This document shows, one piece after another, positions 19,691 through 31,796 of a stretch of DNA of 64,000 bases (its first letter is position 1; each line of letters opens with the position of its first letter). The translations under genes and the position numbers were made by a program. The stretch spans positions 700 to 64,699 of the forward strand of contig JANMTS010000060.1 in the NCBI GenBank assembly GCA_031390755.1, read 5' to 3'. This stretch comes from Holophagales bacterium. GTDB lineage: Bacteria > Acidobacteriota > Thermoanaerobaculia > Multivoradales > UBA5704. The notes beneath the pieces are model-generated. The model was not told the origin of the DNA and made no database searches. It worked only from the letters and a program-made list of their open reading frames with translations.

Positions 19691-19802
19691 TTCCGGCGGG
19701 GGTGAGGGAAGCTCCCCCGCGCGGACGTTTCTCTCCATGGTGGCGCAAGCCCCAATCCAATCCAGATTCAGCTTACGCGGCCACCCGGCGAGGATGCGCT
19801 CC

Positions 19803-21026
19803 ATGGAAACGAATCGGATCCTCTTGTTCAGCCAACCGGGAACGTCCCCGCTCGCCGACCAGCTCGCGGCGATCCTCAGCGCGGCGTCGATCGCGGTCCG
19901 CAGGGTCGAGGTCGACGGCGGCGGCGCGCCAGCCGCCAGTCAGGTGGCCGACGCCCTCTCCGGCGGCCAGCCGCACTCCGTCGCCATGATGCCCGAGGAG
20001 ACCCCGGCGGGATTGGGCCACGGGCCGTGTGCCCCGTCCAGGACGACGACCCGCGAGGCCTACGCCCTGCGCCAGCTCATCGGCGAGAGCCCGGCCTTCC
20101 TGGCCGCGGTGCGGAAGATCCCGATGGTCGCGAAGTGGGATGTCGGCGTGCTGATCTGCGGCGAAACGGGGACCGGCAAGGATCTGGCCGGCCGCGCCAT
20201 CCATGCCCTGAGCCCGCGCGCGAGCCAGCCCTTCGTCCCGGTCAACTGCGGCGCGCTGCCGGTCGAGCTGGTGGAGAACGAGCTGTTCGGCCACGAGCGC
20301 TCCGCCTACACCAGCGCGGCGACCTCCTCGACCGGACTGGTGCAGGCGGCCGAAGGCGGCACGCTGTTCCTCGACGAGGTCGATTCCCTCCCTCCGGCCG
20401 CCCAGGTCAAGCTCCTCCGTTTCCTGCAGGAGAAGGAGTACCGCCCTCTGGGCTCGTCCAGGGTGCGGCAGGCGGACGTGCGCATCCTCGCCGCCACGAA
20501 CGTCGACCCGGAGAAGGCCGTCGAGGAAGGGCGACTGCGCAGCGACCTCTACTACCGGCTGAACGTGGTGCGGCTGGACCTGCCGCCGCTGCGCGACCGG
20601 CGCGAGGACGTGCCGCTTCTCGCCCGGCACTTCCTGGCCCGTCTCAACGCCCGCTTCGGGCTTTCGATCTCCGGCTTCACGGCCGAGGCGGTCCAGGCGC
20701 TGAGCCTCCACGAGTGGCCCGGCAACGTGCGGGAGCTGGCCCACGGGGTCGAGCGGGCCGTGGTGCTGTGCGGCGGCTGCCAGCGGCTCGGCCGCGAGCA
20801 TCTGCACCTGTCGCAGGGAGCCTCCCGGGAGCCCGCCGAGCGCTTCCGCGAGGCCAAGGCGCGCACCATCGCCGAGTTCGAGCGCAACTACGTGCGCACG
20901 CTGCTGACGACCCACGGCGGCAACATCACCCACGCCGCCCGCGCCGCCGGCAAGGACCGCAAGTCGTTCTGGGAGCTCATCCGGACCCACCGGATCGATG
21001 TCGCCAGCCTGCGCAGCCAGGCCTGA
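19803..21026 (+). CDS. sigma-54-dependent transcriptional activator (bEBP, Fis-type HTH)
   Basis: Start METNRILLF (ATG 19803). Walker A GETGTGKD, Walker B LFLDEVD, 'ELFGHERSAYTSA' loop, 'WPGNVRELAH', C-terminal HTH 'GGNITHAARAAGKDRKSFWELI'. Confidence 0.9.
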   Translation: METNRILLFSQPGTSPLADQLAAILSAASIAVRRVEVDGGGAPAASQVADALSGGQPHSVAMMPEETPAGLGHGPCAPSRTTTREAYALRQLIGESPAFLAAVRKIPMVAKWDVGVLICGETGTGKDLAGRAIHALSPRASQPFVPVNCGALPVELVENELFGHERSAYTSAATSSTGLVQAAEGGTLFLDEVDSLPPAAQVKLLRFLQEKEYRPLGSSRVRQADVRILAATNVDPEKAVEEGRLRSDLYYRLNVVRLDLPPLRDRREDVPLLARHFLARLNARFGLSISGFTAEAVQALSLHEWPGNVRELAHGVERAVVLCGGCQRLGREHLHLSQGASREPAERFREAKARTIAEFERNYVRTLLTTHGGNITHAARAAGKDRKSFWELIRTHRIDVASLRSQA

Positions 21027-22545: not shown

Positions 22546-24219
22546 ATGCCTGAATATCTGTCTCCCGGAGTGTACGTCGAGGAGGTCTCCTCGGGGATCA
22601 AGCCCATCGAAGGGGTCGGAACCTCCACCGGCGCCTTCGTCGGCGGCGCCGTGAAAGGGCCGGTCGACAAGGCGGTCCTGGTCACCAACTTCACACAGTT
22701 CGTCGACACGTTCGGCAGCTTTCACCCCAACCACTACCTGGCCTACGCGGTGCGCCACTTCTTCCTCGAAGGGGGCACGCGTTGTTACGTCGTCCGCGCC
22801 TTCCACCCGACCGACATTCCCAAGCCTCTCCCGCCGGACTGGCCCTGGCCCTCGGGTGTCCTACCGGATTTCGCCTGGTCGAAGCTCAAAGAGAACAAAA
22901 CGGACACAACCAACAACAAGGAAGTCCTCCTCGTGGCGGCCAACAGCCCGGGAGCCTGGGGCAATGATCTGTCGATCAAGATCGAGAAGGCCTCGTTCGA
23001 TCCGCGCGACGCCACGGACGCGGAGATGCGCTTCAAGCTGACCGTCCTGGCAAAGCGACCGGGGGCTTCGGCGGAAGCAGTGGAGGTCTTCGACTCTCTT
23101 ACCTTGGCCGACTTCATCGGCAACACCAAGCTGCCCAACCCGAACCACGCCGAGATACGGATCAATGGCACGTCCCGCTACATCCGGGTCTCCGACCTGA
23201 CGGCCACCGACAAGCTCATGAAGCCCTTCTTCGAGCCCGAACCCACCCCGCTCAAAGAAGGCCTCGACGGCGGCGTCAAGGCCGACGGCCCACTCCTGGA
23301 GCTGGGCGACCTCACGGGAGACGAGGCGAAGCGCACCGGTCTTCATGCGTTCGACCCGGTCGACGACATCAACATCGTCGCCATCCCGGACTTGATGCAG
23401 CTCGACGCTGCTGGAGACCAAAGCGCTACGAACGCGCGCGCCGGCACGCTCGCCGGCCTCACCTACTGCCAGAACCGCAAGGACTGCTTCTTCGTCGCCG
23501 ACATGCCCAGGGGCAAGACGCCGCAGGAGGCGCTCGCCTACAAGCAGGCGCAGGCGCCGTTCAGCGGCAGCCCGTTCAACTCGTCCTTCGGCGCGCTCTA
23601 CTACCCGTGGATCTGGGTGGACGACCCGGTCACCGGCGGGCGCAAGCTCTTCCCGCCCTCGGGGGCCGTCGCCGGCTCCTACTCCGGCACCGACGTGCGG
23701 CGCGGCGTCCACAAGGCGCCCGCCGGCACCGAGGACGGCTACCTGAACGCCGCCCTCGACATCGAGCGCACCCTGACCAAGGGCGAGCACGACACGCTCA
23801 ACCCCAACGGCGTCAACGTCATCCGCAAGTTCCCCGAGGCGGGCATCGTCCTCTGGGGCGCCCGCACGCTGTCGGCCGACCCGGAGTGGAAGTACCTCAA
23901 CGTCCGGCGCCTCTTCCTGTTCCTCGAAGAGTCGATCTTCAAGGGCACCCAGTGGGTGGTCTTCGAGCCCAACGACCCCGTGCTGTGGAAGCGCATCGTG
24001 CGCAACATCAGCGCCTTCCTGCGGGTGCAGTGGAGCGAGGGCAAGCTGGTGGGCGCCAAGCCGGAGGAGGCGTTCTTCGTCAAGTGCGACGCGGAGACCA
24101 ATCCTCCGGAGTCGGTCGACCTGGGCCGCGTGATCACGGTCATCGGCGTCGCGCCCTCGAAACCCGCCGAGTTCGTCATTTTCCGCATCTCCCAGTTCCA
24201 GCCCGGGGCGGGCGACTGA
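22546..24219 (+). CDS. contractile tail sheath protein 1
   Basis: Classic N-terminus MPEYLSPGVYVEEVSSGIKPIEGVGTSTGAFVG. C-terminal 'GVNVIRKFPEAGIVLWGARTL...EAFFVKCD'. Confidence 0.95.
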   Translation: MPEYLSPGVYVEEVSSGIKPIEGVGTSTGAFVGGAVKGPVDKAVLVTNFTQFVDTFGSFHPNHYLAYAVRHFFLEGGTRCYVVRAFHPTDIPKPLPPDWPWPSGVLPDFAWSKLKENKTDTTNNKEVLLVAANSPGAWGNDLSIKIEKASFDPRDATDAEMRFKLTVLAKRPGASAEAVEVFDSLTLADFIGNTKLPNPNHAEIRINGTSRYIRVSDLTATDKLMKPFFEPEPTPLKEGLDGGVKADGPLLELGDLTGDEAKRTGLHAFDPVDDINIVAIPDLMQLDAAGDQSATNARAGTLAGLTYCQNRKDCFFVADMPRGKTPQEALAYKQAQAPFSGSPFNSSFGALYYPWIWVDDPVTGGRKLFPPSGAVAGSYSGTDVRRGVHKAPAGTEDGYLNAALDIERTLTKGEHDTLNPNGVNVIRKFPEAGIVLWGARTLSADPEWKYLNVRRLFLFLEESIFKGTQWVVFEPNDPVLWKRIVRNISAFLRVQWSEGKLVGAKPEEAFFVKCDAETNPPESVDLGRVITVIGVAPSKPAEFVIFRISQFQPGAGD

Positions 24220-24243
24220 GGCGAGCACAAGGAGAGACCCGCC

Positions 24244-24681
24244 ATGCCACGGAGAGCGACCGATCCCTATGCCTCGTTCAACTTCCTCCTGGAGATCGAC
24301 GGCATCGCCAAGGCCGGATTTTCGGAGGTCACCGGCCTCAACGCCGAGGCCAACATCATCGAGTACCGGGAGGGCGGCGACAAGGCCAACACCATGCGCA
24401 AGCTGCCGGGCCTCGAGAAGTACGGCAACGTGACGCTCAAGCGCGGCGTCAGCCAGGACCCCGAGCTGTTCACCTGGCACAAGACCGTGATCGACGGCGA
24501 CATCGTGCGCGACGAGGCGATGTCGATCGTGCTGCTCGACGAGAAGCGCCAGGAGGCGGCGCGCTGGAACCTGCTCCAGGCCTGGGCGGTGAAGTGGGTG
24601 GGGCCGGACCTCAAGGCCGGCGCCAACGAGATCGCCATCGAATCCCTCGAGCTCGCCCATGAGGGCGTGGAGCGCCAGTGA
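24244..24681 (+). CDS. tail tube protein 1 (T4 gp19-like)
   Basis: MPRRATDPYASFNFLLEIDGIAKAGFSEVTGL...YGNVTLKRGV...ESLELAHEG. Confidence 0.9.
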   Translation: MPRRATDPYASFNFLLEIDGIAKAGFSEVTGLNAEANIIEYREGGDKANTMRKLPGLEKYGNVTLKRGVSQDPELFTWHKTVIDGDIVRDEAMSIVLLDEKRQEAARWNLLQAWAVKWVGPDLKAGANEIAIESLELAHEGVERQ

Positions 24682-25061
24682 TGTTGCAGACCGAGTTCGA
24701 GGTCACGCTGCCCAAGGGGTACGTCGACAAGGACGGCAACCTGCACCGCACGGGGATCATGCGTCTCGCCAACGCGCGCGACGAGATCGCGCCGCTCCAG
24801 GACCCGCGGGTGCAGCGCAATCCGGCCTACCTGACGGTGATCCTGCTGTCGCGGGTGCTCATCAAGCTGGGCGAGGTGCGCGAGGTCACGCCGGCCACGA
24901 TCGAGGGGCTGTTCTCGGCCGACTTCGCCTATCTCCAGGATTTCTACGGCCGGATCAACGCCAACGGGCACAGCGCCGTGACGATCGAATGCCCGGAGTG
25001 CGAGGCGCGCTTCCAGGTCACGCAGGATCTCCTGGAAGGAGGGCCGGACGCGGGGGGGTAG
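24681..25061 (+). CDS. tail assembly chaperone-like protein (zinc-ribbon C-terminus)
   Basis: ATG 24681 overlaps the tube stop (TGATG). It sits immediately after the sheath-tube pair, as P2 gpE does. 'CPECEARF'. It ends at a G7 tract followed by TAG. Confidence 0.55.
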   Translation: MLQTEFEVTLPKGYVDKDGNLHRTGIMRLANARDEIAPLQDPRVQRNPAYLTVILLSRVLIKLGEVREVTPATIEGLFSADFAYLQDFYGRINANGHSAVTIECPECEARFQVTQDLLEGGPDAGG

Positions 25062-25228
25062 CTTGCTATCCCCTGGACCAGGCGGCCAGGGAGGTAGCGT
25101 ACATCGCCTACTACTTTCATTGGCCGCGCGAGGAGATCCTCGACCTGCCCCACCGTGAGCGGCGGCGATGGGTGGAGGAGATCGCGCGGATCAACCAGGA
25201 GATCAACGAGGCGGCCGAGCGGGCCTGA
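25058..25228 (+). CDS. -1-frame extension ORF lacking its own start codon
   Basis: Own reading of the -1 frame from 25058: VACYPLDQAAREVAYIAYYFHWPREEILDLPHRERRRWVEEIARINQEINEAAERA*. No ATG/GTG/TTG occurs in that frame before GTG 25172. Confidence 0.45.
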   Translation, partial: VACYPLDQAAREVAYIAYYFHWPREEILDLPHRERRRWVEEIARINQEINEAAERA

Positions 25229-25266
25229 CAGGCTTGATCGAGCCGCCGGAGAGGGAGACCCAGGCC

Positions 25267-26949
25267 ATGGAGGCGAGAGCCCCGGGAGCACAGATCCGCG
25301 AGGTCGAGCTGGCGCCGCCGGCCTTCCTCCAGCTCAGCGTGGCCGGGTTCGTCGGCCAGGCCGAGCGCGGACCGATGCACAGCCCTCAGCTGCTGACGAG
25401 CTGGGGGCAGTTCACCGACGTCTTCGGCGGCTTCACGGGGCGTTCGTTCCTGGCCTACGCCGTGTTCGGCTTCTTCGCCAACGGCGGCCGGCGCTGCTGG
25501 GTGGTACGCACGGCGCACTGGCAGTCGCAGACGGCGCGACTCGATCTCCTCGATCCCGCCGGGACCTCCCGGATCGCCGTCCATGCGCTCGATCCCGGCG
25601 GCTGGGGGAACGCGATCGAGGTGGACTGCCGCCCGGTCCCCGACAAACGGATTCCGGGCGGCTTCCGCCTGGCCTTCCGTTACCGTCCCGGAGGCCGGAC
25701 GGTGCGGGAGGAGATCTTCGACGACCTCTCCCCCGATCCGGAGCACAAGCGGTATTTCGTGCGGCTCGTCAACGGCGATCCTCCGGCCGAGAGCTATGTC
25801 GAGAAGGCCCGGCAGGGGTGCTCGACCCTGGTGCGGGTCGAGGCGCTCGGGGCCGGTTCGCCGGCGGTCGTCACAGGGATCGCGGGCGTCAATGGCGCGC
25901 CGCTCGCCAGGGGCGAGGACGGTCCGTGGCGCCTCACCGTGGCCCACTATGTGGGATACGAGGACGGCGTGCTCTTCCGGCCGCAGGGCCTGCCGAAGGG
26001 GACGCTGGGCGGGCTCGCCGCGTTCGAGCGCATCTCCGAGATCGGCACCGTGGCGATCCCCGACCTGATCCTCCCCGAGCTGATCCCGCCGGGCGACGCC
26101 GTTCCCACCCGGGGACCGGTCTTCGCCGGCGCCCCGGCCGGCAGCCTGGAGGGGATGCTCGAAGGGCAGCGCGAGATGCTGCGCCACTGCCGCCGCAGGG
26201 GCGAGCGGTTCGCCCTGCTCGACGCGCCGCGCGGCGCCGAGCCCGGGCGCGGGGTGCGCCCGGTCGAGGACTGGGCGGGCAAGCTTTCCGATCTTCCCGA
26301 GGCGCGCGACGGCGCGCTCTACCACCCCTGGCTCCGCCATCGCGCCGCGGACTTCGGCGGGCGCGACCTGCTGATCCCGCCGTGCGGCCACGTGGCCGGC
26401 ATCTACGCCCGCAGCGAGGAGCGGCGCGGCGTGGGCAAGGCGCCGGCCAACGAGATCCTCCAGGGCGCCGTGAGCCTGGAGCTGTGTCTCGACGACGCCC
26501 GCCAGGCGCTGGTCAATTCCCTGGGCGTGAACTGCCTGCGCGTCTTCCCCGGCCGCGGCCTGCGCGTCTGGGGCGCGCGCACCCTCAGCCGCGACCCGCA
26601 GTGGAGCTACGTCAACGTGCGCCGGGTGGCCCTGGCGATCGTCAAGCAGATCCTGGTCCGCCTGCGCTGGACGGCGTTCGAGCCCAACGGCCCCGGACTG
26701 TGGCGGGCGGTCACCGCGACGCTGACCCTCTTCCTGCTCCAGCTCCTGGAGAGCGGCGCCCTCGCCGGAGCCTCGGCGGCCGAGGCCTTCTTCGTCCAGT
26801 GCGACGAGGAGACGAACCCGCCCGAGCTCACCGGGCAGGGCCAGATGCTGGCGCGGATCGGCTTCGCGCCGGCCCGGCCCGCCGAGTTCGTGGTGGTCAC
26901 CCTCCGCCGGACCGCCGAATCGCTGGTGGTCACGGAGCAGGGGCTCTAG
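25267..26949 (+). CDS. contractile tail sheath protein 2 (paralog)
   Basis: Start MEARAPGAQIREV (ATG 25267, preceded by ggagaggga). 'GVNCLRVFPGRGLRVWGARTL...EAFFVQCD' parallels sheath 1. Confidence 0.9.
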   Translation: MEARAPGAQIREVELAPPAFLQLSVAGFVGQAERGPMHSPQLLTSWGQFTDVFGGFTGRSFLAYAVFGFFANGGRRCWVVRTAHWQSQTARLDLLDPAGTSRIAVHALDPGGWGNAIEVDCRPVPDKRIPGGFRLAFRYRPGGRTVREEIFDDLSPDPEHKRYFVRLVNGDPPAESYVEKARQGCSTLVRVEALGAGSPAVVTGIAGVNGAPLARGEDGPWRLTVAHYVGYEDGVLFRPQGLPKGTLGGLAAFERISEIGTVAIPDLILPELIPPGDAVPTRGPVFAGAPAGSLEGMLEGQREMLRHCRRRGERFALLDAPRGAEPGRGVRPVEDWAGKLSDLPEARDGALYHPWLRHRAADFGGRDLLIPPCGHVAGIYARSEERRGVGKAPANEILQGAVSLELCLDDARQALVNSLGVNCLRVFPGRGLRVWGARTLSRDPQWSYVNVRRVALAIVKQILVRLRWTAFEPNGPGLWRAVTATLTLFLLQLLESGALAGASAAEAFFVQCDEETNPPELTGQGQMLARIGFAPARPAEFVVVTLRRTAESLVVTEQGL

Positions 26950-26958
26950 GAGAGGACG

Positions 26959-27405
26959 ATGGCGCGCCGAAGCACCGATCCGTACGCGGGCTACCGCTTC
27001 CTCCTCCAGCTCGGGGTGCTGCCCGCGGCCGGCTTTGCCGAGTGCACCGGCCTCCAGGCCGAGACCAAGGTCTTGGACTACGTCGAGGGCGGGCGCAACG
27101 GCACGACCCTCAAGTTCCCGGAGGCCACCGGCTACTCCAACGTCGTGCTCAAGCGGGGGGTCGGCCTCTCGAACGAGCTTCTCTACTGGCAGCTCGACGC
27201 CGCGCACGGGCTCTTCGTTCTCAACCCCCGGCTGGTCGTCAACACCGCCATCGTGCTCCAGGACGAGCGCGGCCGGCCCGTCCGCTTCTGGCTGCTGAAG
27301 CGGGCCTTTCCGGTCAAGTGGACAGGACCGGACCTCAAGGCGGGGGCGAACGAGGTCGCCATCGAGTCGCTGGAGCTCGCCCATGAGGGGATCGTGCCGC
27401 TATGA
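26959..27405 (+). CDS. tail tube protein 2 (paralog)
   Basis: MARRSTDPYAGYRFLLQLGVLPAAGFAECTGLQAE...YSNVVLKRGV...ESLELAHEG. Confidence 0.9.
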   Translation: MARRSTDPYAGYRFLLQLGVLPAAGFAECTGLQAETKVLDYVEGGRNGTTLKFPEATGYSNVVLKRGVGLSNELLYWQLDAAHGLFVLNPRLVVNTAIVLQDERGRPVRFWLLKRAFPVKWTGPDLKAGANEVAIESLELAHEGIVPL

Positions 27406-27974: not shown

Positions 27975-30177
27975 GGCGCCATCCGCGGTTGGCCCCGCGG
28001 TTGGCTCCGCGGTAGGTGATACCGGCGATCTTGACGAGCGCGGGCACCTGCTCGCGGCGCTCGACCGGATCGACGTCCTGCTGCGCCTGGCCGCGACCCG
28101 GCGGCGGCGCGACCCGTCGGCGGCCGAGGCCGACGGCTTCCGCGGCCTCTACATCTCGGAGGAGGAGATCCGGCGGCTGTGCGAGCCGGCCCCGCCCCCG
28201 GCTCCCCGCTCGGGTGAACGCTCGGAGGAAGAAGAGGATCTGCTCGCGGCGCTCGCCCTCGCCGAGGACGATCTGGCGCGGCACACCGCCGCCGCCCTGG
28301 CCGCCGGGGTGCGGCTCCCCCTCGCCGAGCTGGCGGAGCGCTTTGCGCTGTCGCCGTTCGACGTCGACGCGCTGCTGCTGTGCCTGGCGCCGGAGCTCGA
28401 CAGCCGGTGCGAGACGCTGTACGCCTACCTTCAGGACGACGTCACCCGCCGCCGCCCGACCGCCGGCCTGATCCTCTCCCTGCTCGCGCCGTCGCGCGGC
28501 GAGCGGCTGGCGCTCCATGCCCGGCTCGCGGCCGGAGCGCCGCTGCTGCGCCACGGCCTGCTGGTCTGGGTCGCGACCGAGGACGAGGCTCCGTTCCCCT
28601 CCCGCCCGCTGCGTCTCGACGACCGCATCGTCCACGTCCTCCTCGGCCTGGATCTCCCGGACGAGCGGCTCGCCCCGTTCGCGCGCCGGATCGCGCCGCG
28701 GGCTCCGCTCCGCGAGGTGATGCTGCCCGCCGGGCTCGGACCGGAGGTGCTGCGCGCCCGGACCGGCGGCGGCCCCGCCCGGCTGGTGTTCCAGGGGGAG
28801 CCCGGCGCCGGCCGGCGGCTCGCCGCCGAGGCCCTGTGCGCGGAGGCCGGCCTCGGGCTGCTGGAGGTGGACACGCCGGCCCTGCTCGCCCAGGGGTCCG
28901 AGATCCGCGCCCTCGCCGCGCGGCTGCCGCGCGAGGCGGCTCTCCTCGGCTGCGCCGTCTATCTCGACGGCGCCGAGGCGCTCCTGGACGACGTAGCGGC
29001 CCCGGCCGCCCGCGAGGTGCTCGGCGCCCTGGAGGGCTTCCCCGGCGCGCTCGTCCTCGGCACGGCCCGGCCCTGGCCCCCGGGCCGGCTGACCGAGGCC
29101 GGGCTGCTGCGGATCGACTTCCCGGCTCCCGACCCCGGGCAGCGGCGGGCGCTGTGGCGGGCGGCCGTCCGCCGCCACGGTCTCGCCGCCATCCCGGAGG
29201 CCGGCCTCGACGCCCTGGCCGAGCGCTATGCCTTCAACGCCGGGAGCATCGACCGCGCCGCGGCCGAGGCCGCCTGCGCGGGGGCCGGTCCTGAGGTCGG
29301 CGATCTCGACCGGGCCTGCCGCGCCCAGACCGGCGGCGTCCTCGCCGCGCTCGCGCGCCGGATCCCGACGCTCTCCACCTGGGACGACCTGGTGCTGCCG
29401 GCTGGCAGCCTGTCCCAGCTCCGCGAGCTGTGCGCCCACGTCGAGCACCGCCGGCAGGTCTTCGAGGGCTGGGGCTTCGAGCGCAGGATCGCGCGCGGCA
29501 AGGGGATCGCCGCCCTGTTCGCCGGTCCCTCGGGCGCCGGCAAGACCCTGGCCGCCGAGGTCGTGGCCGGGGCGCTGGGGCTGGAGCTGTTCCGGATCGA
29601 TCTCTCCGCGATCGTCTCCAAGTACATCGGGGAGACCGAGAAGAACCTCGCCCGCATCTTCACCGCGGCCGAGGAGGGTCACGCCGTCCTCTTCTTCGAC
29701 GAGGCCGACGCGATCTTCGGCAAGCGCTCTCAAGTCAAGGACGCCCACGACCGCTACGCCAACATTGAGGTCAACTACCTGTTGCAGCGCCTGGAGGATC
29801 ACCCCGGCGTGGTGATCCTGGCCAGCAACTTCCGCAAGAACATCGACGAGGCCTTCACGCGCCGCCTGCGCTTCGTGGTCGAGCTGCCGCTGCCTGACGA
29901 GGCTCTGCGCCGCGATCTCTGGAGGAAGCTCTTTCCCCCGGAGGCGCCGCTCGCGGCCGGCGTCGACTTCGAGTTCCTGGCCCGCCGCTTCAAGATCACC
30001 GGCGGCAGCATCCGCAACATCGTCCTCCATGCCGCCTTCCTGGCCGCGGCGGCCGGCGCCCCCGTGGGCATGGAGCACGTGCTGCGCTCCACCCGGCGCG
30101 AGCTCGCCAAGAGCGGCCATCTCTGCCTGCGCGCGGACTTCGAGCCCTACGCCGACCTGGCCGGAGAGGAGTCATGA
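27952..30177 (+). CDS. AAA+ ATPase (Afp15-like)
   Basis: ATG 27952 follows ggagga. C-terminal AAA module with 'FAGPSGAGKTLAAE', 'VLFFDEADAIFGKR', 'ILASNFRKNIDEAFTRRL'. Confidence 0.9.
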   Translation: MRVSTIVEAPSAVGPAVGSAVGDTGDLDERGHLLAALDRIDVLLRLAATRRRRDPSAAEADGFRGLYISEEEIRRLCEPAPPPAPRSGERSEEEEDLLAALALAEDDLARHTAAALAAGVRLPLAELAERFALSPFDVDALLLCLAPELDSRCETLYAYLQDDVTRRRPTAGLILSLLAPSRGERLALHARLAAGAPLLRHGLLVWVATEDEAPFPSRPLRLDDRIVHVLLGLDLPDERLAPFARRIAPRAPLREVMLPAGLGPEVLRARTGGGPARLVFQGEPGAGRRLAAEALCAEAGLGLLEVDTPALLAQGSEIRALAARLPREAALLGCAVYLDGAEALLDDVAAPAAREVLGALEGFPGALVLGTARPWPPGRLTEAGLLRIDFPAPDPGQRRALWRAAVRRHGLAAIPEAGLDALAERYAFNAGSIDRAAAEAACAGAGPEVGDLDRACRAQTGGVLAALARRIPTLSTWDDLVLPAGSLSQLRELCAHVEHRRQVFEGWGFERRIARGKGIAALFAGPSGAGKTLAAEVVAGALGLELFRIDLSAIVSKYIGETEKNLARIFTAAEEGHAVLFFDEADAIFGKRSQVKDAHDRYANIEVNYLLQRLEDHPGVVILASNFRKNIDEAFTRRLRFVVELPLPDEALRRDLWRKLFPPEAPLAAGVDFEFLARRFKITGGSIRNIVLHAAFLAAAAGAPVGMEHVLRSTRRELAKSGHLCLRADFEPYADLAGEES

Positions 30178-31796
30178 GGGGGGTCAGGAGGAAGACCCGG
30201 CGCCCGGCCGCGCTCGGTTTCGCCCGCGGCATCCTCGCGCGGCACCGGCCGCTGGCCCGGCCGCGCCCGGTCGCGAGGCTGGGCTCGCCGTTCTCGTGGG
30301 TGCATCCGCTGCTGGCGCGGGGAGGGCGGCCGGCGGGCGCCGGTGCCGGCCGGCTTCTCCGGACGGTCGTCCGGCAGGAGCACACGCGGCGTGACACGGT
30401 GCGGACGGTGCAGACGGTGCAGACGGTGCAGACGGTGCGAACGTTGCAGACGCTGCGGGAAACCAGGACGGTCGTGGTGCCTGGGAGGGTGGGCCCTCAC
30501 CCCCCGGCCCCCTCTCCCGGTCCGCCCGAGCCCTCCCGCCCCGGGAGAGGGGGAGACTTGCGGGTTCCGGGTGTCTCAGGGCGCGTCGCCGTGCTGGCGG
30601 CTGCCGGCGGGGTGGGCCGCCGGGCCGCCCGTTTCGGGCACGGAGGCGGCGCTATCGGTACCTGGAAGGTTGGAGACGCCCCGAGGTTCCGGGATCCGGT
30701 TAGGTTTTCGATGACGGACCGGGGCGTCTCTACCCGCACATCAGCCGGCATCGAGACGCGACTCTCAACCGCGTACCGCCACGTAGAGACGGCCCGGTCC
30801 GTCTACACCAACCTCACCGGGTCTCGAAACTCCGGGCCGTCTCTCCTCTCCGTCACCACGATCGTGCCGGGCGCGCACCACAACGGCCCGACCCTGCGTT
30901 TCGAGGGCGTTCCCTGCACCCCAACCGAAATCCAGACCCGCATCCAGCCGCGAATCCCAACCGCCTACCGCCACGTAGAGACGGCCCAGTCCGTCTACAC
31001 CAACCTCACCGGGTCCCGAGGCTCCGGGCCGTCTCTCCTCTCCGTCACCACGATCGTGCCGGGCGCGCACCACAACGGCTCGACCCTGCGTTTCGGAGGC
31101 GTGAACGGCTCGACCCTGCATCCTGCGGTCGTGAAGAGCACGACCCTGCGTTTCGGGCGCACAGGCGGCGGCATCGATTCCTGGAAGGTTGGAGACGCCC
31201 CGGCGTTTCGGAACCCGGTCAGGTTGGTGATGACGGACTGGGGCGTCTCTACCCAAACATCGACAAGCAGCCAGACCGGAATCCAGGCCGGGACCCAGAC
31301 CGCCTTCGCGGCAGCCGGATTCCGGTCCGGAAAGACTGTCGGCATGCCAATCGCCCCGAGCGGGACGGGCGGCAACGCCCAGCCCCGCCGCCATCGGTCC
31401 CCGGGAGGGAGGGGGCGCCCCTCTCCCGGGGCGGGCGGACTCGGGCGGACCGGGAGAGGGGACGGGGGTGAGGACCCCCACCCCTGGGCACCGGTGGCCG
31501 CCCCCGTGCTGGCCCCGGCGCCGCGGCCCGCAAGCCGAGCCACGGCCGCCGCCACGTCCTCGACGGTATCTACAACCCCAACGTCTGCGCCGGCCGCAGC
31601 CACCTCACCGGCAGCTCCCGCCCTCGGCGAGCGGCAGGTGGTCGAGCTGGTCCGCAAGGAGCTGCGCGGCGCCCTCGCACCGGTGCTGGCGGCCCGGTCC
31701 CAACCGGACGGCGGCCGGGACGCCCACCTCGCCGACCGGGTCGTCTCCAACCTCGAACGCCGCCTCCTCGTCGAACGGGAGCGCCGCGGGCTCTGA
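30174..31796 (+). CDS. hypothetical protein at the tape-measure position, carrying an internal repeat block
   Basis: ATGA overlap with the ATPase stop. The frame stays open for 540 codons. It sits directly upstream of the LysM tube initiator and gpD hub. C-terminus 'ADRVVSNLERRLLVERERRGL'. The function is assigned by position only. Confidence 0.4.
   Translation: MRGVRRKTRRPAALGFARGILARHRPLARPRPVARLGSPFSWVHPLLARGGRPAGAGAGRLLRTVVRQEHTRRDTVRTVQTVQTVQTVRTLQTLRETRTVVVPGRVGPHPPAPSPGPPEPSRPGRGGDLRVPGVSGRVAVLAAAGGVGRRAARFGHGGGAIGTWKVGDAPRFRDPVRFSMTDRGVSTRTSAGIETRLSTAYRHVETARSVYTNLTGSRNSGPSLLSVTTIVPGAHHNGPTLRFEGVPCTPTEIQTRIQPRIPTAYRHVETAQSVYTNLTGSRGSGPSLLSVTTIVPGAHHNGSTLRFGGVNGSTLHPAVVKSTTLRFGRTGGGIDSWKVGDAPAFRNPVRLVMTDWGVSTQTSTSSQTGIQAGTQTAFAAAGFRSGKTVGMPIAPSGTGGNAQPRRHRSPGGRGRPSPGAGGLGRTGRGDGGEDPHPWAPVAAPVLAPAPRPASRATAAATSSTVSTTPTSAPAAATSPAAPALGERQVVELVRKELRGALAPVLAARSQPDGGRDAHLADRVVSNLERRLLVERERRGL
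30396..30458 (+). repeat. 7 x 9-bp tandem repeat (acggtgcag-like)
   Basis: The seven units are acggtgcgg, acggtgcag x3, acggtgcga, acgttgcag and acgctgcgg, encoding TVRTVQTVQTVQTVRTLQTLR. Confidence 0.85.
30495..31473. repeat. composite roughly 979-bp repeat block bounded by about 60-bp inverted hairpin repeats
   Basis: Left end 30495-30553 is cctcaccccccggccccctctcccggtccgcccgag...ccgggagaggggg. Its reverse complement recurs at 31413-31473. Internal direct repeats: X (30661-30735 / 31180-31254, offset 519 nt) and Y (30766-30910 / 30957-31102, offset 192 nt). Confidence 0.65.

What the first reader, a model, noticed from the sequence alone, without database searches (positions are those of the whole stretch)
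24681..25228. G7 slippery tract predicts a -1 programmed frameshift (gpG/GT- or gpE/E'-style) in the chaperone-like gene
The ORF after tube 1 ends ...gac gcG GGG GGG TAG. Seven consecutive G (25052-25058) form an X_XXY_YYZ heptamer in the zero frame, directly before the stop.

Slipping -1 continues into VACYPLDQAAREVAYIAYYFHWPREEILDLPHRERRRWVEEIARINQEINEAAERA* (to 25228). This reads like a real helical peptide. Three observations support the link:
- That frame has no ATG, GTG or TTG until GTG 25172.
- The same frame upstream of 25058 translates to Arg/Gly-rich nonsense.
- A weak hairpin (ccctgg...ccaggg) follows about 11 nt downstream.

The gene position (sheath, tube, then this ORF) matches the frameshifted tail assembly chaperones of lambda (G/GT) and P2 (E/E+E'). 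A conserved frameshift of this kind in an eCIS-type locus would be notable. A G7 tract could instead act as a phase-variable switch through slipped-strand mispairing or transcriptional slippage.
Basis: partly seen in the sequence, partly recalled or inferred. Interest (0 to 1): 0.7.

Follow-up and report, generated by a model that had tools for sequence, protein, structure and literature searches.

The report
Conserved -1 frameshift in injection-system chaperone gene
A small gene next to the tail-tube gene of a phage-tail-like injection system carries a complete, deeply conserved "slip back one base" signal that should fuse it to a hidden downstream peptide, as phage tail-assembly chaperones do, and genome annotation currently misses this.

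Summary

**Anatomy**
- ORF-X (24681-25061, 126 aa) ends GCG GGG GGG TAG.
- The -1 frame continues to 25228 and encodes Pfam DUF6760 (E=4e-16).

**Comparative support, 79 loci from more than 10 phyla with both parts (86 with 7 added later)**
- DUF6760 is always in the -1 frame.
- A slip motif always sits in the same register: mostly G-runs, plus independent canonical heptamers G GGA AAA, T TTT TTG and C CCT TTC.
- 32 of 79 loci have no ATG/GTG/TTG upstream of the domain.

**New finding**
- A hairpin starts exactly 6 nt after the heptamer (window 25065-25098).
- It is 90% paired across 78 sequences and shows compensatory changes.
- Its arms show extreme codon bias: Val GTA 65/68 against an 8.6% background.

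**Limits and rejected readings**
- All 30 ORF-X relatives tested match PHROG 508 "tail assembly chaperone", but ORF-X is not related to P2 gpE.
- DUF6760 is not detectably related to the Afp6/Cis6 plug.
- Phase variation and sequencing error are not supported.
- A Chloroflexota clade and Streptomyces seem to have switched to coupled initiation.

No searchable paper describes this frameshift. RefSeq annotates two genes, the second starting at ATA in the one record examined. It is a new member of a known kind; expression is untested.

The parts
24244..24681 (+). Tail tube gene 1 (T4 gp19-like). Its stop overlaps the ORF-X start (TGATG).
   Evidence: Pfam PF06841, E=2.3e-45; sequence.
24681..25061 (+). 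ORF-X, zero-frame product of 126 aa (13.9 kDa): tail-assembly-chaperone-like protein ending ...PDAGG, stop TAG 25059-25061.
   Evidence: Translation. 1981 homologues, most of them 126 aa. PHROG 508 'tail assembly chaperone' E=1.5e-6, and 30/30 members match. GC3 0.88-0.96 in this frame.
25052..25058 (+). Slippery heptamer G_GGG_GGG (X_XXY_YYZ in the zero frame).
   Evidence: Sequence. The same register holds a canonical heptamer in 50/79 loci and a G_GGR tetramer in the other 29. G>=5 runs are enriched, 63/79 against 2.5%.
25059..25064 (+). 6-nt spacer (TAGCTT) between heptamer and hairpin. It contains the zero-frame stop codon.
   Evidence: Sequence. The spacing is constant in the ungapped alignment A3.
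25065..25098 (+). Candidate frameshift-stimulating hairpin. Outer stem GCUAUC/GGUAGC, 1x1 internal loop, inner stem CCCUGG/CCAGGG extended by CC/GG, 4-nt loop.
   Evidence: MFE -23.6 kcal/mol, z = -2.3. 90% of cells paired in 78 sequences against 34-59% for slid controls, and 39 double-change cells against 19.3+-3.1. Codon bias in the arms.
25058..25228 (+). -1-frame coding segment (56 codons plus TGA) encoding the DUF6760 domain. No usable start codon of its own before GTG 25172.
   Evidence: Pfam PF20546, E=4.2e-16. GC3 0.84-0.88 in this frame. Translation.
24681..25228 (+). Predicted trans-frame product ORF-X-DUF6760: 182 aa, 20.7 kDa, junction ...PDAGG|VACYPLD...
   Evidence: Inference from the cassette. 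A single-ORF homologue, P0008, has the same junction PPGG-VIVYPLD.
25267..26949 (+). Sheath gene 2, the next gene downstream (start ATG 25267 preceded by GGAGAGGGAG).
   Evidence: Pfam sheath domains. The GC3 frame switch at about 25260 and the sequence place the start.

Best explanation
ORF-X and the DUF6760 segment form one recoded gene.

**Proposed mechanism**
- Most ribosomes translate ORF-X and stop at TAG 25059. This gives a 126-aa tail-assembly-chaperone-like protein.
- A fraction slip back one base on G_GGG_GGG (25052-25058).
  - The slip is either a tandem slip of the two tRNA-Gly, or a P-site tRNA-Gly slip with the stop codon in the A site.
  - It is helped by a hairpin that begins 6 nt downstream (25065-25098).
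- Those ribosomes read on in the -1 frame to 25228 and make a 182-aa ORF-X-DUF6760 fusion.

**Proposed function (inferred)**
By analogy with lambda G/GT and P2 E/E+E', the two products would be made at a fixed ratio.
- The shared ORF-X part would hold a tape-measure-like protein.
- The DUF6760 extension would recruit another tail component during assembly of the injection system's tube and sheath.

**Shown and inferred**
- Shown: the cassette anatomy, its conservation, and the chaperone-family match.
- Inferred: that slippage happens, its efficiency, and the partners of each domain.
For: 1. DUF6760 is a real domain and is in the -1 frame in every locus that has it. That is 79 of the 81 loci examined first, 7/7 IMG/VR loci and the RefSeq Nostoc plasmid.
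2. A slip motif sits in a fixed register 15 nt (range 12-21) upstream of the conserved Tyr.
   - G GGG GGG occurs 31 times. G GGG GGA, G GGA AAA, T TTT TTG and C CCT TTC also occur. The other 29 loci have G GGR followed by a stop or by GAA/GAG.
   - Substitution of one canonical heptamer by another is what ribosomal slippage predicts.
3. The zero-frame stop moves from 0 to about 12 codons after the motif, while the distance from motif to domain stays fixed.
4. Start codons are missing.
   - 32/79 loci have no ATG/GTG/TTG anywhere in the -1 ORF upstream of the domain, and 59/79 have none within 30 nt.
   - In L091 and L094 a -1-frame stop lies one codon before the G-run, which confines the frame change to about 13 nt. 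L060, L014 and L021 have 13-16-nt windows.
5. A hairpin lies 6 nt downstream.
   - It is 90% paired across 78 sequences against 34-59% for slid controls. G:C<->C:G swaps occur 23:22 at one pair, and 0/500 shuffles reach the observed values.
   - Val is GTA in 65/68 cases against an 8.6% background (3.7% in high-GC loci). Pro is CCC in 59/77 against 28%. The codon before Tyr ends GC in 66/79 loci while encoding R, G, S or C.
6. In the window, GC3 switches frame at the tract.
7. ORF-X family members match PHROG 508 'tail assembly chaperone' 30/30, best E=3.7e-8. The gene directly follows a tube gene.
8. The loci that have lost the hairpin are mostly those that gained a start codon overlapping the stop (9 of 12).
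Against: - There is no experimental evidence of the trans-frame product.
- G_GGG_GGG, and especially G_GGG_GAA and G_GAG_GGA+stop, are not among the classic high-efficiency heptamers. 29/79 loci need a single-tRNA (P-site) slip.
- In Chloroflexota, Streptomyces and L081 a GTG/ATG lies after the G-run. Gene callers produce standalone 52-55-aa DUF6760 proteins there, so DUF6760 may work alone in some lineages.
- Clean single-ORF fusions are very rare. P0008 is the only good one and its DNA could not be retrieved. P0044 is an assembly artefact.
- The hairpin lies inside conserved coding sequence, and the loci are phylogenetically related. The shuffle and binomial statistics therefore overstate independence.
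- No tape-measure protein was identified by family.
- The structure model was too poor to confirm a chaperone fold.
Confidence: 0.78

Rival explanations
1. ORF-X and DUF6760 are two separate proteins. DUF6760 would be started independently by termination-reinitiation coupling at the ORF-X stop, with the G-run acting as a Shine-Dalgarno-like element and a non-canonical start (GTA, ATA or CTG 25073) in this window.
For: - Chloroflexota loci have GTG/ATG overlapping the TGA stop.
- Streptomyces and L081 have GTG overlapping TGA, 4 nt after the G-run.
- Standalone 52-55-aa DUF6760 proteins starting at Met/Val are catalogued.
- RefSeq annotates the Nostoc gene separately, with an ATA start.
- The hairpin is lost exactly where a proper start exists. 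This suggests the mode does operate in some lineages.
Against: - In the window the -1 frame has no ATG/GTG/TTG between the G tract and 25172.
- GTA differs from AUG at two positions.
- 32/79 loci have no canonical start anywhere upstream of the domain.
- In loci such as L031, L057 and L095 the zero-frame stop lies 7-28 nt downstream of the conserved Tyr codon. Reinitiation after the stop would skip conserved residues.
- The Leu codon at the position of CTG 25073 is CTC, TTA, TTG or CTT in other loci.
- This model does not explain canonical heptamers replacing the G-run, or the conserved hairpin 6 nt downstream.
Confidence: 0.12
2. The G7 tract is a hypermutable or transcriptional-slippage site. 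DNA-level length changes (phase variation) or RNA polymerase stuttering would put the two frames in register in a subpopulation.
For: - Homopolymeric G7 tracts can be unstable.
- G-run length differs among relatives, from 5 to 8.
- One single-ORF homologue exists (P0008).
Against: - All 79 genome loci and all 7 IMG/VR loci are in the same -1 state. A switching tract should give a mixture.
- Many loci have only G5. Some have G GGA AAA, or the non-homopolymeric C CCT TTC. These are poor substrates for polymerase slippage but good ones for ribosomal slippage.
- A conserved RNA hairpin at a 6-nt spacing is a feature of ribosomal frameshift sites.
Confidence: 0.06
3. The stop after the G tract is a sequencing or assembly error (a lost G) or a recent pseudogenising mutation. 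The true gene would be a single 182-aa ORF.
For: - Homopolymer indels are common assembly errors.
- One extra G would give exactly the fusion.
Against: - The same two-frame arrangement occurs in every locus with both parts. These come from different projects, technologies and phyla, and include cultured-strain genomes (Moorena, Okeania, Nostoc).
- About 1981 homologues are mostly 126 aa.
- The one apparent 'fusion' whose DNA could be read (P0044) is itself an error-ridden contig.
Confidence: 0.02

Closest known systems
Lambda gpG/gpGT tail assembly chaperone, -1 programmed frameshift (Levin, Hendrix & Casjens 1993; Xu, Hendrix & Duda 2004; summarised in PMC5009743)
   Same: - A short ORF lies next to the tail tube gene.
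- A slippery heptamer sits near its end. Lambda uses G GGA AAG, and some loci here use G GGA AAA.
- A -1 extension adds a second domain, so two products share an N-terminus.
- The expected role is in tube assembly around a ruler protein.
   Different: - No sequence homology to gpG or gpT was shown.
- The host system is a contractile injection system, not a siphophage tail.
- The -1 domain is DUF6760.
- To my knowledge no downstream structure is needed in lambda, whereas here a hairpin is strongly conserved.
- The tape-measure gene is not adjacent in this window.
Phage P2 gpE / gpE+E' (myophage tail chaperone; annotated -1 frameshift at T TTT TTG)
   Same: - The tail is contractile, and the gene order is sheath, tube, then chaperone with a -1 frameshift.
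- One locus here (L052) uses the same T TTT TTG heptamer.
   Different: - ORF-X is not detectably homologous to gpE: hhalign probability 0.1%, and gpE belongs to PHROG 103 against PHROG 508 for ORF-X.
- In P2 the tape-measure gene T follows directly.
PHROG 508 'tail assembly chaperone' family
   Same: All 30 ORF-X family members tested match this profile (best E=3.7e-8). So do the Streptomyces and Ktedonobacter homologues.
   Different: - The match covers residues 7-87 only.
- No phage in the INPHARED collection gives a tblastn hit to ORF-X-DUF6760.
- The PHROG name is an annotation, not a tested function.
Cis6/Afp6/Pvc6/Alg6 spike plug (DUF5908, PF19265; PMC8894136, PMC12546770)
   Same: It is a small helical protein of about 55 aa, encoded right after a tube gene in injection-system clusters and essential for particle assembly. 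It shares a short motif with DUF6760 (QRWVERI against RRWVEEI).
   Different: - Profile-profile comparison gives 3-8% probability.
- Afp6 has its own ATG and no upstream chaperone-like ORF.
- DUF6760 is therefore not shown to be a Cis6 homologue.
dnaX-type bacterial -1 frameshift cassette (heptamer, spacer, downstream stem-loop)
   Same: The architecture is the same: a slippery heptamer, a 6-nt spacer and a stable hairpin.
   Different: - In dnaX the shift ends translation early and gives a shorter product (established knowledge). Here it extends the protein.
- No separate upstream Shine-Dalgarno stimulator was identified, although the G-run itself is SD-like.

Membership tests
Phage-type tail assembly chaperone with conserved -1 frameshift (lambda G/GT, P2 E/E+E' class) | Two overlapping ORFs, the second in the -1 frame and lacking its own start | tested here: met
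   - DUF6760 is in the -1 frame in all 79 loci with both parts, plus 7/7 further loci.
- The window has no start before 25172.
- 32/79 loci have none at all upstream of the domain.
Phage-type tail assembly chaperone with conserved -1 frameshift (lambda G/GT, P2 E/E+E' class) | Slippery sequence within the overlap, near the end of the first ORF | tested here: met
   - The window has G_GGG_GGG at 25052-25058.
- 50/79 loci have a canonical X_XXY_YYZ heptamer in register, and 29/79 have a G_GGR tetramer.
Phage-type tail assembly chaperone with conserved -1 frameshift (lambda G/GT, P2 E/E+E' class) | Located between the major tail (tube) gene and the tape-measure gene | tested here: inconclusive
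   - The gene lies directly downstream of a tube gene in the window and in related loci.
- A conserved protein of 394-778 aa with no family assignment sits in the tape-measure position upstream of Cis7.
- It has no family match and no similarity to Afp14.
- In the window it is separated from ORF-X by sheath2, tube2, cap and ATPase genes.
Phage-type tail assembly chaperone with conserved -1 frameshift (lambda G/GT, P2 E/E+E' class) | Sequence or profile homology to a recognised chaperone family | tested here: met
   - PHROG 508 'tail assembly chaperone' matches 30/30 members, best E=3.7e-8.
- No homology to P2 gpE.
- No Pfam or NCBIfam chaperone family matches.
Phage-type tail assembly chaperone with conserved -1 frameshift (lambda G/GT, P2 E/E+E' class) | Both products made at a set ratio, required for tail assembly, absent from the finished particle | not testable with these tools
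   This needs expression, proteomics and genetics.
Canonical -1 programmed ribosomal frameshift cassette | Stimulatory RNA structure 5-9 nt downstream of the heptamer, supported by conservation or covariation | tested here: met
   - The spacer is 6 nt and the hairpin is at 25065-25098.
- 90% of cells are paired against 34-59% for slid controls, with compensatory changes.
- Synonymous-codon bias occurs in both arms.
- Its stimulatory activity has not been tested.
Pfam DUF6760 (PF20546) | Score above the Pfam gathering threshold | tested here: met
   59.2 bits against a cut-off of 27, E=4.2e-16, residues 9-55 of the -1 peptide.
Cis6/Afp6/Pvc6 spike plug (DUF5908, PF19265) | Sequence or profile homology of DUF6760 to DUF5908 | tested here: not met
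   - hhalign probability is 7.8% (A2 against Afp6) and 2.9% (A6 against A5).
- PDB chain searches with the fusion and with DUF6760 profiles found no injection-system chain.
Phase-variable homopolymeric tract (contingency locus) | Length polymorphism giving both in-frame and out-of-frame alleles among close relatives | tested here: not met
   - Every locus is in the same -1 state, although G-run length ranges from 5 to 8.
- Non-homopolymer heptamers occur at the same site.

The most novel reading that the evidence does not exclude
The cassette of heptamer, 6-nt spacer and hairpin drives an obligatory programmed -1 frameshift in a whole lineage of contractile injection systems spanning more than 10 bacterial phyla. 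That would make it one of the most widely distributed recoding events in bacterial chromosomal (non-phage, non-IS) genes. DUF6760 would be a new 'T-domain' that exists only as a trans-frame extension in most lineages. In Chloroflexota and Actinomycetota it has been secondarily converted into a separately initiated gene, giving a natural series that shows how a frameshift site is lost.
Probability: 0.5. Interest if true: 0.72.

Novelty: new member of a known kind. Interest (0 to 1): 0.64.

Why it matters
**For injection-system biology**
- These systems are being engineered as protein-delivery devices, and how they set their length and assemble is poorly understood.
- A phage-style chaperone with a frameshift-set ratio of two products would mean this large, cross-phylum lineage assembles its tube around a ruler protein as long-tailed phages do.
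- It would also name two of the factors needed to rebuild such particles in a heterologous host. Cloning 'two genes' without the native junction would lose the fusion product.

**For annotation**
- It gives a first functional context to Pfam DUF6760.
- It explains why that 'gene' so often lacks a start codon. Current annotation splits it off, with a non-canonical ATA start in the one RefSeq record examined.

**For recoding research**
- The case is clean and alignment-rich. Heptamer identity, spacer and hairpin can be compared across hundreds of natural variants.
- It includes lineages that appear to have abandoned frameshifting.

Tried and rejected
- **Structure route.** AlphaFold2 of the natural fusion P0008 with a 48-sequence alignment gave pLDDT 56 and pTM 0.30. 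That is too poor for fold searches, so none were run.
- **PDB sequence and profile searches.** The fusion, ORF-X profile and two DUF6760 profiles gave only chance hits: zinc fingers, ribosomal L37e, PSRP-3.
- **DUF6760 as the Cis6/Afp6 plug.** Afp6 was retrieved from pADAP and is DUF5908. Only a short shared motif was found, and hhalign gave 3-8%. Rejected as unproven.
- **Homology to P2 gpE.** None found.
- **Phage relatives.** tblastn of the fusion against 50,697 phage genomes gave no match. The 7 IMG/VR hits carry the same cassette, and the one whose genes were scanned (L093) is an injection-system locus rather than a phage.
- **Natural single-ORF fusions as support.**
  - P0044 comes from a contig with many frame errors.
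  - This line of evidence is therefore weak and was down-weighted.
- **Tape-measure identification.** Pfam, NCBIfam and BLASTP against Afp14 found no family for the 540-aa protein.
- **Rfam.** Nothing in 24600-25400.
- **Alignment-wide RNAalifold.** On a 114-nt window it did not recover the hairpin. The hairpin became clear only from per-sequence folds and explicit pair counting.
- **Literature.** No paper in the searchable library contains 'DUF6760'. None links injection systems with frameshifting in this gene.
Full report
**1. The observation**

The window is 70% G+C. The sequence reads ...GAC GCG GGG GGG TAG, with seven G at 25052-25058 and the stop at 25059-25061.
- The zero-frame ORF starts at ATG 24681, which overlaps the tube gene's TGA. 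It encodes 126 aa beginning MLQTEF and ending PDAGG.
- The -1 frame from 25058 encodes VACYPLDQAAREVAYIAYYFHWPREEILDLPHRERRRWVEEIARINQEINEAAERA and stops at 25226-25228.
- That frame has no ATG/GTG/TTG between the tract and GTG 25172.
- Upstream, the -1 frame is formally open to an ATG at 24659, but there it gives Arg/Gly/Ala-rich sequence with a GC3 of only about 0.4.
- GC3 switches from the ORF-X frame (0.88-0.96) to the -1 frame (0.84-0.88) at the tract, and then to the sheath-2 frame at about 25260.

**2. Both halves are real proteins**

- The -1 peptide matches Pfam DUF6760 at E=4.2e-16.
- ORF-X has 1981 homologues in the protein collection, nearly all 125-127 aa. Some are named 'phage tail assembly protein' by NCBI.
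- ORF-X matches PHROG 508 'tail assembly chaperone'. All 30 aligned family members do so, best E=3.7e-8. So do the Streptomyces and Ktedonobacter homologues.

The locus is a contractile injection system. In order it contains:
- a sigma-54 activator and a CarboxypepD_reg protein;
- sheath 1 and tube 1;
- ORF-X/DUF6760;
- sheath 2 and tube 2;
- a Pvc16_N cap and an AAA ATPase;
- a 540-aa protein of unknown family;
- Cis7 (CIS_tube plus LysM) and spike proteins;
- gp25 and two Baseplate_J proteins;
- large downstream proteins.

**3. Comparative test**

A scan of one genome per species returned 80 loci. They come from:
- Acidobacteriota, Chloroflexota and Cyanobacteriota (including the cultured Moorena, Okeania and Nostoc);
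- Planctomycetota, Nitrospirota, Nitrospinota and Bacteroidota;
- Zixibacteria, Gemmatimonadota, Bacillota and Desulfobacterota;
- other groups.

With the window added, 79 of the 81 have a DUF6760 segment, and in all 79 it is in the -1 frame overlapping the end of ORF-X. The two exceptions (L068, L071, Ktedonobacterales) have no DUF6760 match. In L068, the one examined, an unrelated small ORF with its own ATG follows ORF-X instead.

Anchoring on the conserved Tyr of DUF6760 shows a slip-prone motif in a fixed register:
- G GGG GGG in 31 loci;
- G GGG GGA;
- G GGA AAA in L060, L064 and L065;
- T TTT TTG in L052;
- C CCT TTC in L067;
- in the other 29 loci, G GGR followed directly by a stop, or G GGG followed by GAA/GAG.

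Other points from the census:
- The zero-frame stop wanders from 0 to about 12 codons after the motif, while the distance from motif to domain stays constant.
- A run of at least five G occurs in 63/79 loci, against 2.5% of background 30-nt windows.
- 32/79 loci have no canonical start anywhere in the -1 ORF upstream of the domain, and 59/79 have none within 30 nt.
- Seven further loci from IMG/VR show the same layout. The largest is an injection-system locus, not a phage.
- In two of those loci a -1-frame stop lies one codon before the G-run, which confines the frame change to about 13 nt.

**4. A conserved hairpin**

Folding each locus showed a hairpin that begins 6 nt after the heptamer.
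- The outer stem pairs GC-UAC-C (last two bases of the codon before Tyr, the Tyr codon, and the first base of Pro) with G-GUA-GC (last base of Glu, the Val codon, and the first two bases of Ala).
- A 1x1 internal loop follows, then a variable inner stem.
- In the window it spans 25065-25098, at -23.6 kcal/mol with z = -2.3.

On an ungapped 78-sequence alignment:
- 90% of cells are paired, against 34-59% when partners are slid by 1-3 columns.
- 39 cells carry changes on both sides, against 19.3+-3.1 in shuffles (0/500 reach it).
- One pair is G:C in 23 sequences and C:G in 22. There a synonymous Leu third position covaries with a Gln/Glu first position.

Codon choice shows selection on the RNA:
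- Val is GTA in 65 of 68 cases, against 8.6% of Val codons elsewhere in these genes and 3.7% in the high-GC loci.
- Pro is CCC in 59/77, against 28%.
- The codon before Tyr ends in GC in 66/79 loci although it encodes Arg, Gly, Ser or Cys.

These statistics ignore shared ancestry, so the p-values are upper bounds on significance. The direction is clear all the same. Heptamer, 6-nt spacer and hairpin together make up the standard anatomy of a bacterial -1 frameshift site.

**5. Lineages that differ**

- The hairpin is present in 67/79 loci.
- Nine of the 12 that lack it are one Chloroflexota clade (Fisher p=5e-8, but possibly a single event).
  - In that clade a GTG/ATG overlaps the TGA stop immediately after the G-run.
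  - Both hairpin arms have changed there (GTC TAC CCG ... ATG GCC).
- Streptomyces loci behave likewise. They have a 165-aa ORF-X, CTG GGG GAA TCG TGA with GTG overlapping the stop, and a degraded hairpin of 7/11 pairs.

These lineages probably make DUF6760 by coupled initiation. A 90%-identical relative (L081) has a GTG after the G-run and still keeps the hairpin.

**6. Rival readings**

- Independent initiation fails for the window and for most loci: there is no start codon, stops lie downstream of conserved residues, and the Leu codon is variable.
- Phase variation or transcriptional slippage is contradicted by the invariant frame state, by G5 tracts, and by non-homopolymeric heptamers.
- Sequencing error is excluded by recurrence across independent assemblies.
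- The one apparent fusion with readable DNA (P0044) is an assembly artefact.
- P0008 (177 aa) remains a clean single-ORF form with the junction PPGG-VIVYPLD. Its DNA could not be fetched.
- Of 298 DUF6760 representatives, the 150 best were listed. Almost all are 40-100 aa, and only about three are long enough to be fusions.

**7. What it works like, and what it belongs to**

The arrangement works like the lambda G/GT and P2 E/E+E' chaperones (PMC5009743; P2 annotation).

Membership is narrower:
- ORF-X belongs to PHROG 508, not to the P2 gpE family (hhalign 0.1%).
- No Pfam or NCBIfam chaperone model matches.
- No phage genome in INPHARED carries a relative.
- DUF6760 is not detectably related to the Afp6/Cis6 spike plug, which is DUF5908.
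- Neither half has a solved structure.
- The structure model was unusable.
- The chaperone's presumed client is not identified. A conserved unknown protein sits in the tape-measure position upstream of Cis7 (window 30174-31796). It shares only a C-terminal motif with its Nostoc counterpart and has no similarity to Afp14.

**8. Novelty**

- No paper in the searchable library contains 'DUF6760'.
- None of the injection-system papers examined mentions a frameshift or a chaperone at this position.
- RefSeq annotates the Nostoc pair as two genes and starts the second at ATA.

The phenomenon is a known kind (tail chaperone -1 frameshift) in a setting where it has not been described. It comes with an unusually well-defined stimulatory hairpin and natural loss variants. 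I rate it a new member of a known kind, interest 0.64. Confidence that ribosomal frameshifting operates here is 0.78. The G/GT-like function of the two products is an inference held with lower confidence.

Noticed in passing
L085:4779-4949 (Nostoc sp. UHCC 0926 plasmid pn3, RefSeq): RefSeq annotates 'DUF6760 family protein' as a separate gene. Its first codon is ATA, overlapping the TAG stop of the upstream 'phage tail assembly protein'. This is a forced non-canonical start rather than an annotated ribosomal slippage.
   Followed up: partly
L027, L029, L033, L038, L041, L042, L045, L051, L062 (Chloroflexota); L082/L083 (Streptomyces): These lineages have a GTG/ATG overlapping the ORF-X stop and have lost both arms of the hairpin, but they keep the G-run. 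This looks like a secondary switch from frameshifting to coupled initiation. Streptomyces ORF-X also has a 40-aa N-terminal extension.
   Followed up: partly
L068:4001-4550 and L071 (Ktedonobacterales): In L068 the ORF-X homologue is followed by a 62-aa ORF with its own ATG in the +1 frame, not by DUF6760. Its C-terminus (LLAEKVYQLMLADLRQTRARGG) resembles the C-termini of Afp6-like proteins and of the tape-measure-position proteins. L071 also lacks a DUF6760 match but was not examined further.
   Followed up: no
window 30174-31796: A 540-aa protein with no family match sits just upstream of Cis7, in the tape-measure position. It shares only a C-terminal motif (LADRVVSNLERRLLVERERRGL) with the 524-aa Nostoc counterpart and has no similarity to Afp14. 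It is a candidate client of the chaperone.
   Followed up: partly
window 22546-27405: There are two consecutive sheath-tube pairs (sheath1/tube1 and sheath2/tube2), with the recoded chaperone gene between them. The cap and AAA ATPase genes follow, rather than lying at the end of the cluster as in Afp.
   Followed up: no
window 19737-21026: A sigma-54-dependent activator (Sigma54_activat, E=2e-62) lies just upstream of the injection-system cluster. It is a possible regulator.
   Followed up: no
window 24990-25040 (ORF-X residues about 100-115): A CPxCE motif has two invariant Cys (C104, C107 in alignment A1). It gives weak hits to zinc-ribbon families, but only one CxxC pair is present. A metal-binding knuckle or a dimer-shared site is possible.
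   Followed up: no
P0026 (277 aa), P0027 (210 aa): These low-GC homologues contain two tandem copies of the ORF-X N-terminal domain in one protein.
   Followed up: no
P0262 (1735 aa): A very long protein matches residues 10-33 of DUF6760 (the AYIAYHFHWP region) in five separate stretches. This may be a repeat protein or a chance compositional match.
   Followed up: no
L089-L095 (IMG/VR contigs): Seven contigs catalogued as viral carry the same ORF-X/DUF6760 frameshift cassette. The one whose genes were scanned (L093) is an injection-system cluster with cap, sheaths, tubes, Cis7, VgrG and baseplate J, and no head genes in the stretch examined.
   Followed up: partly
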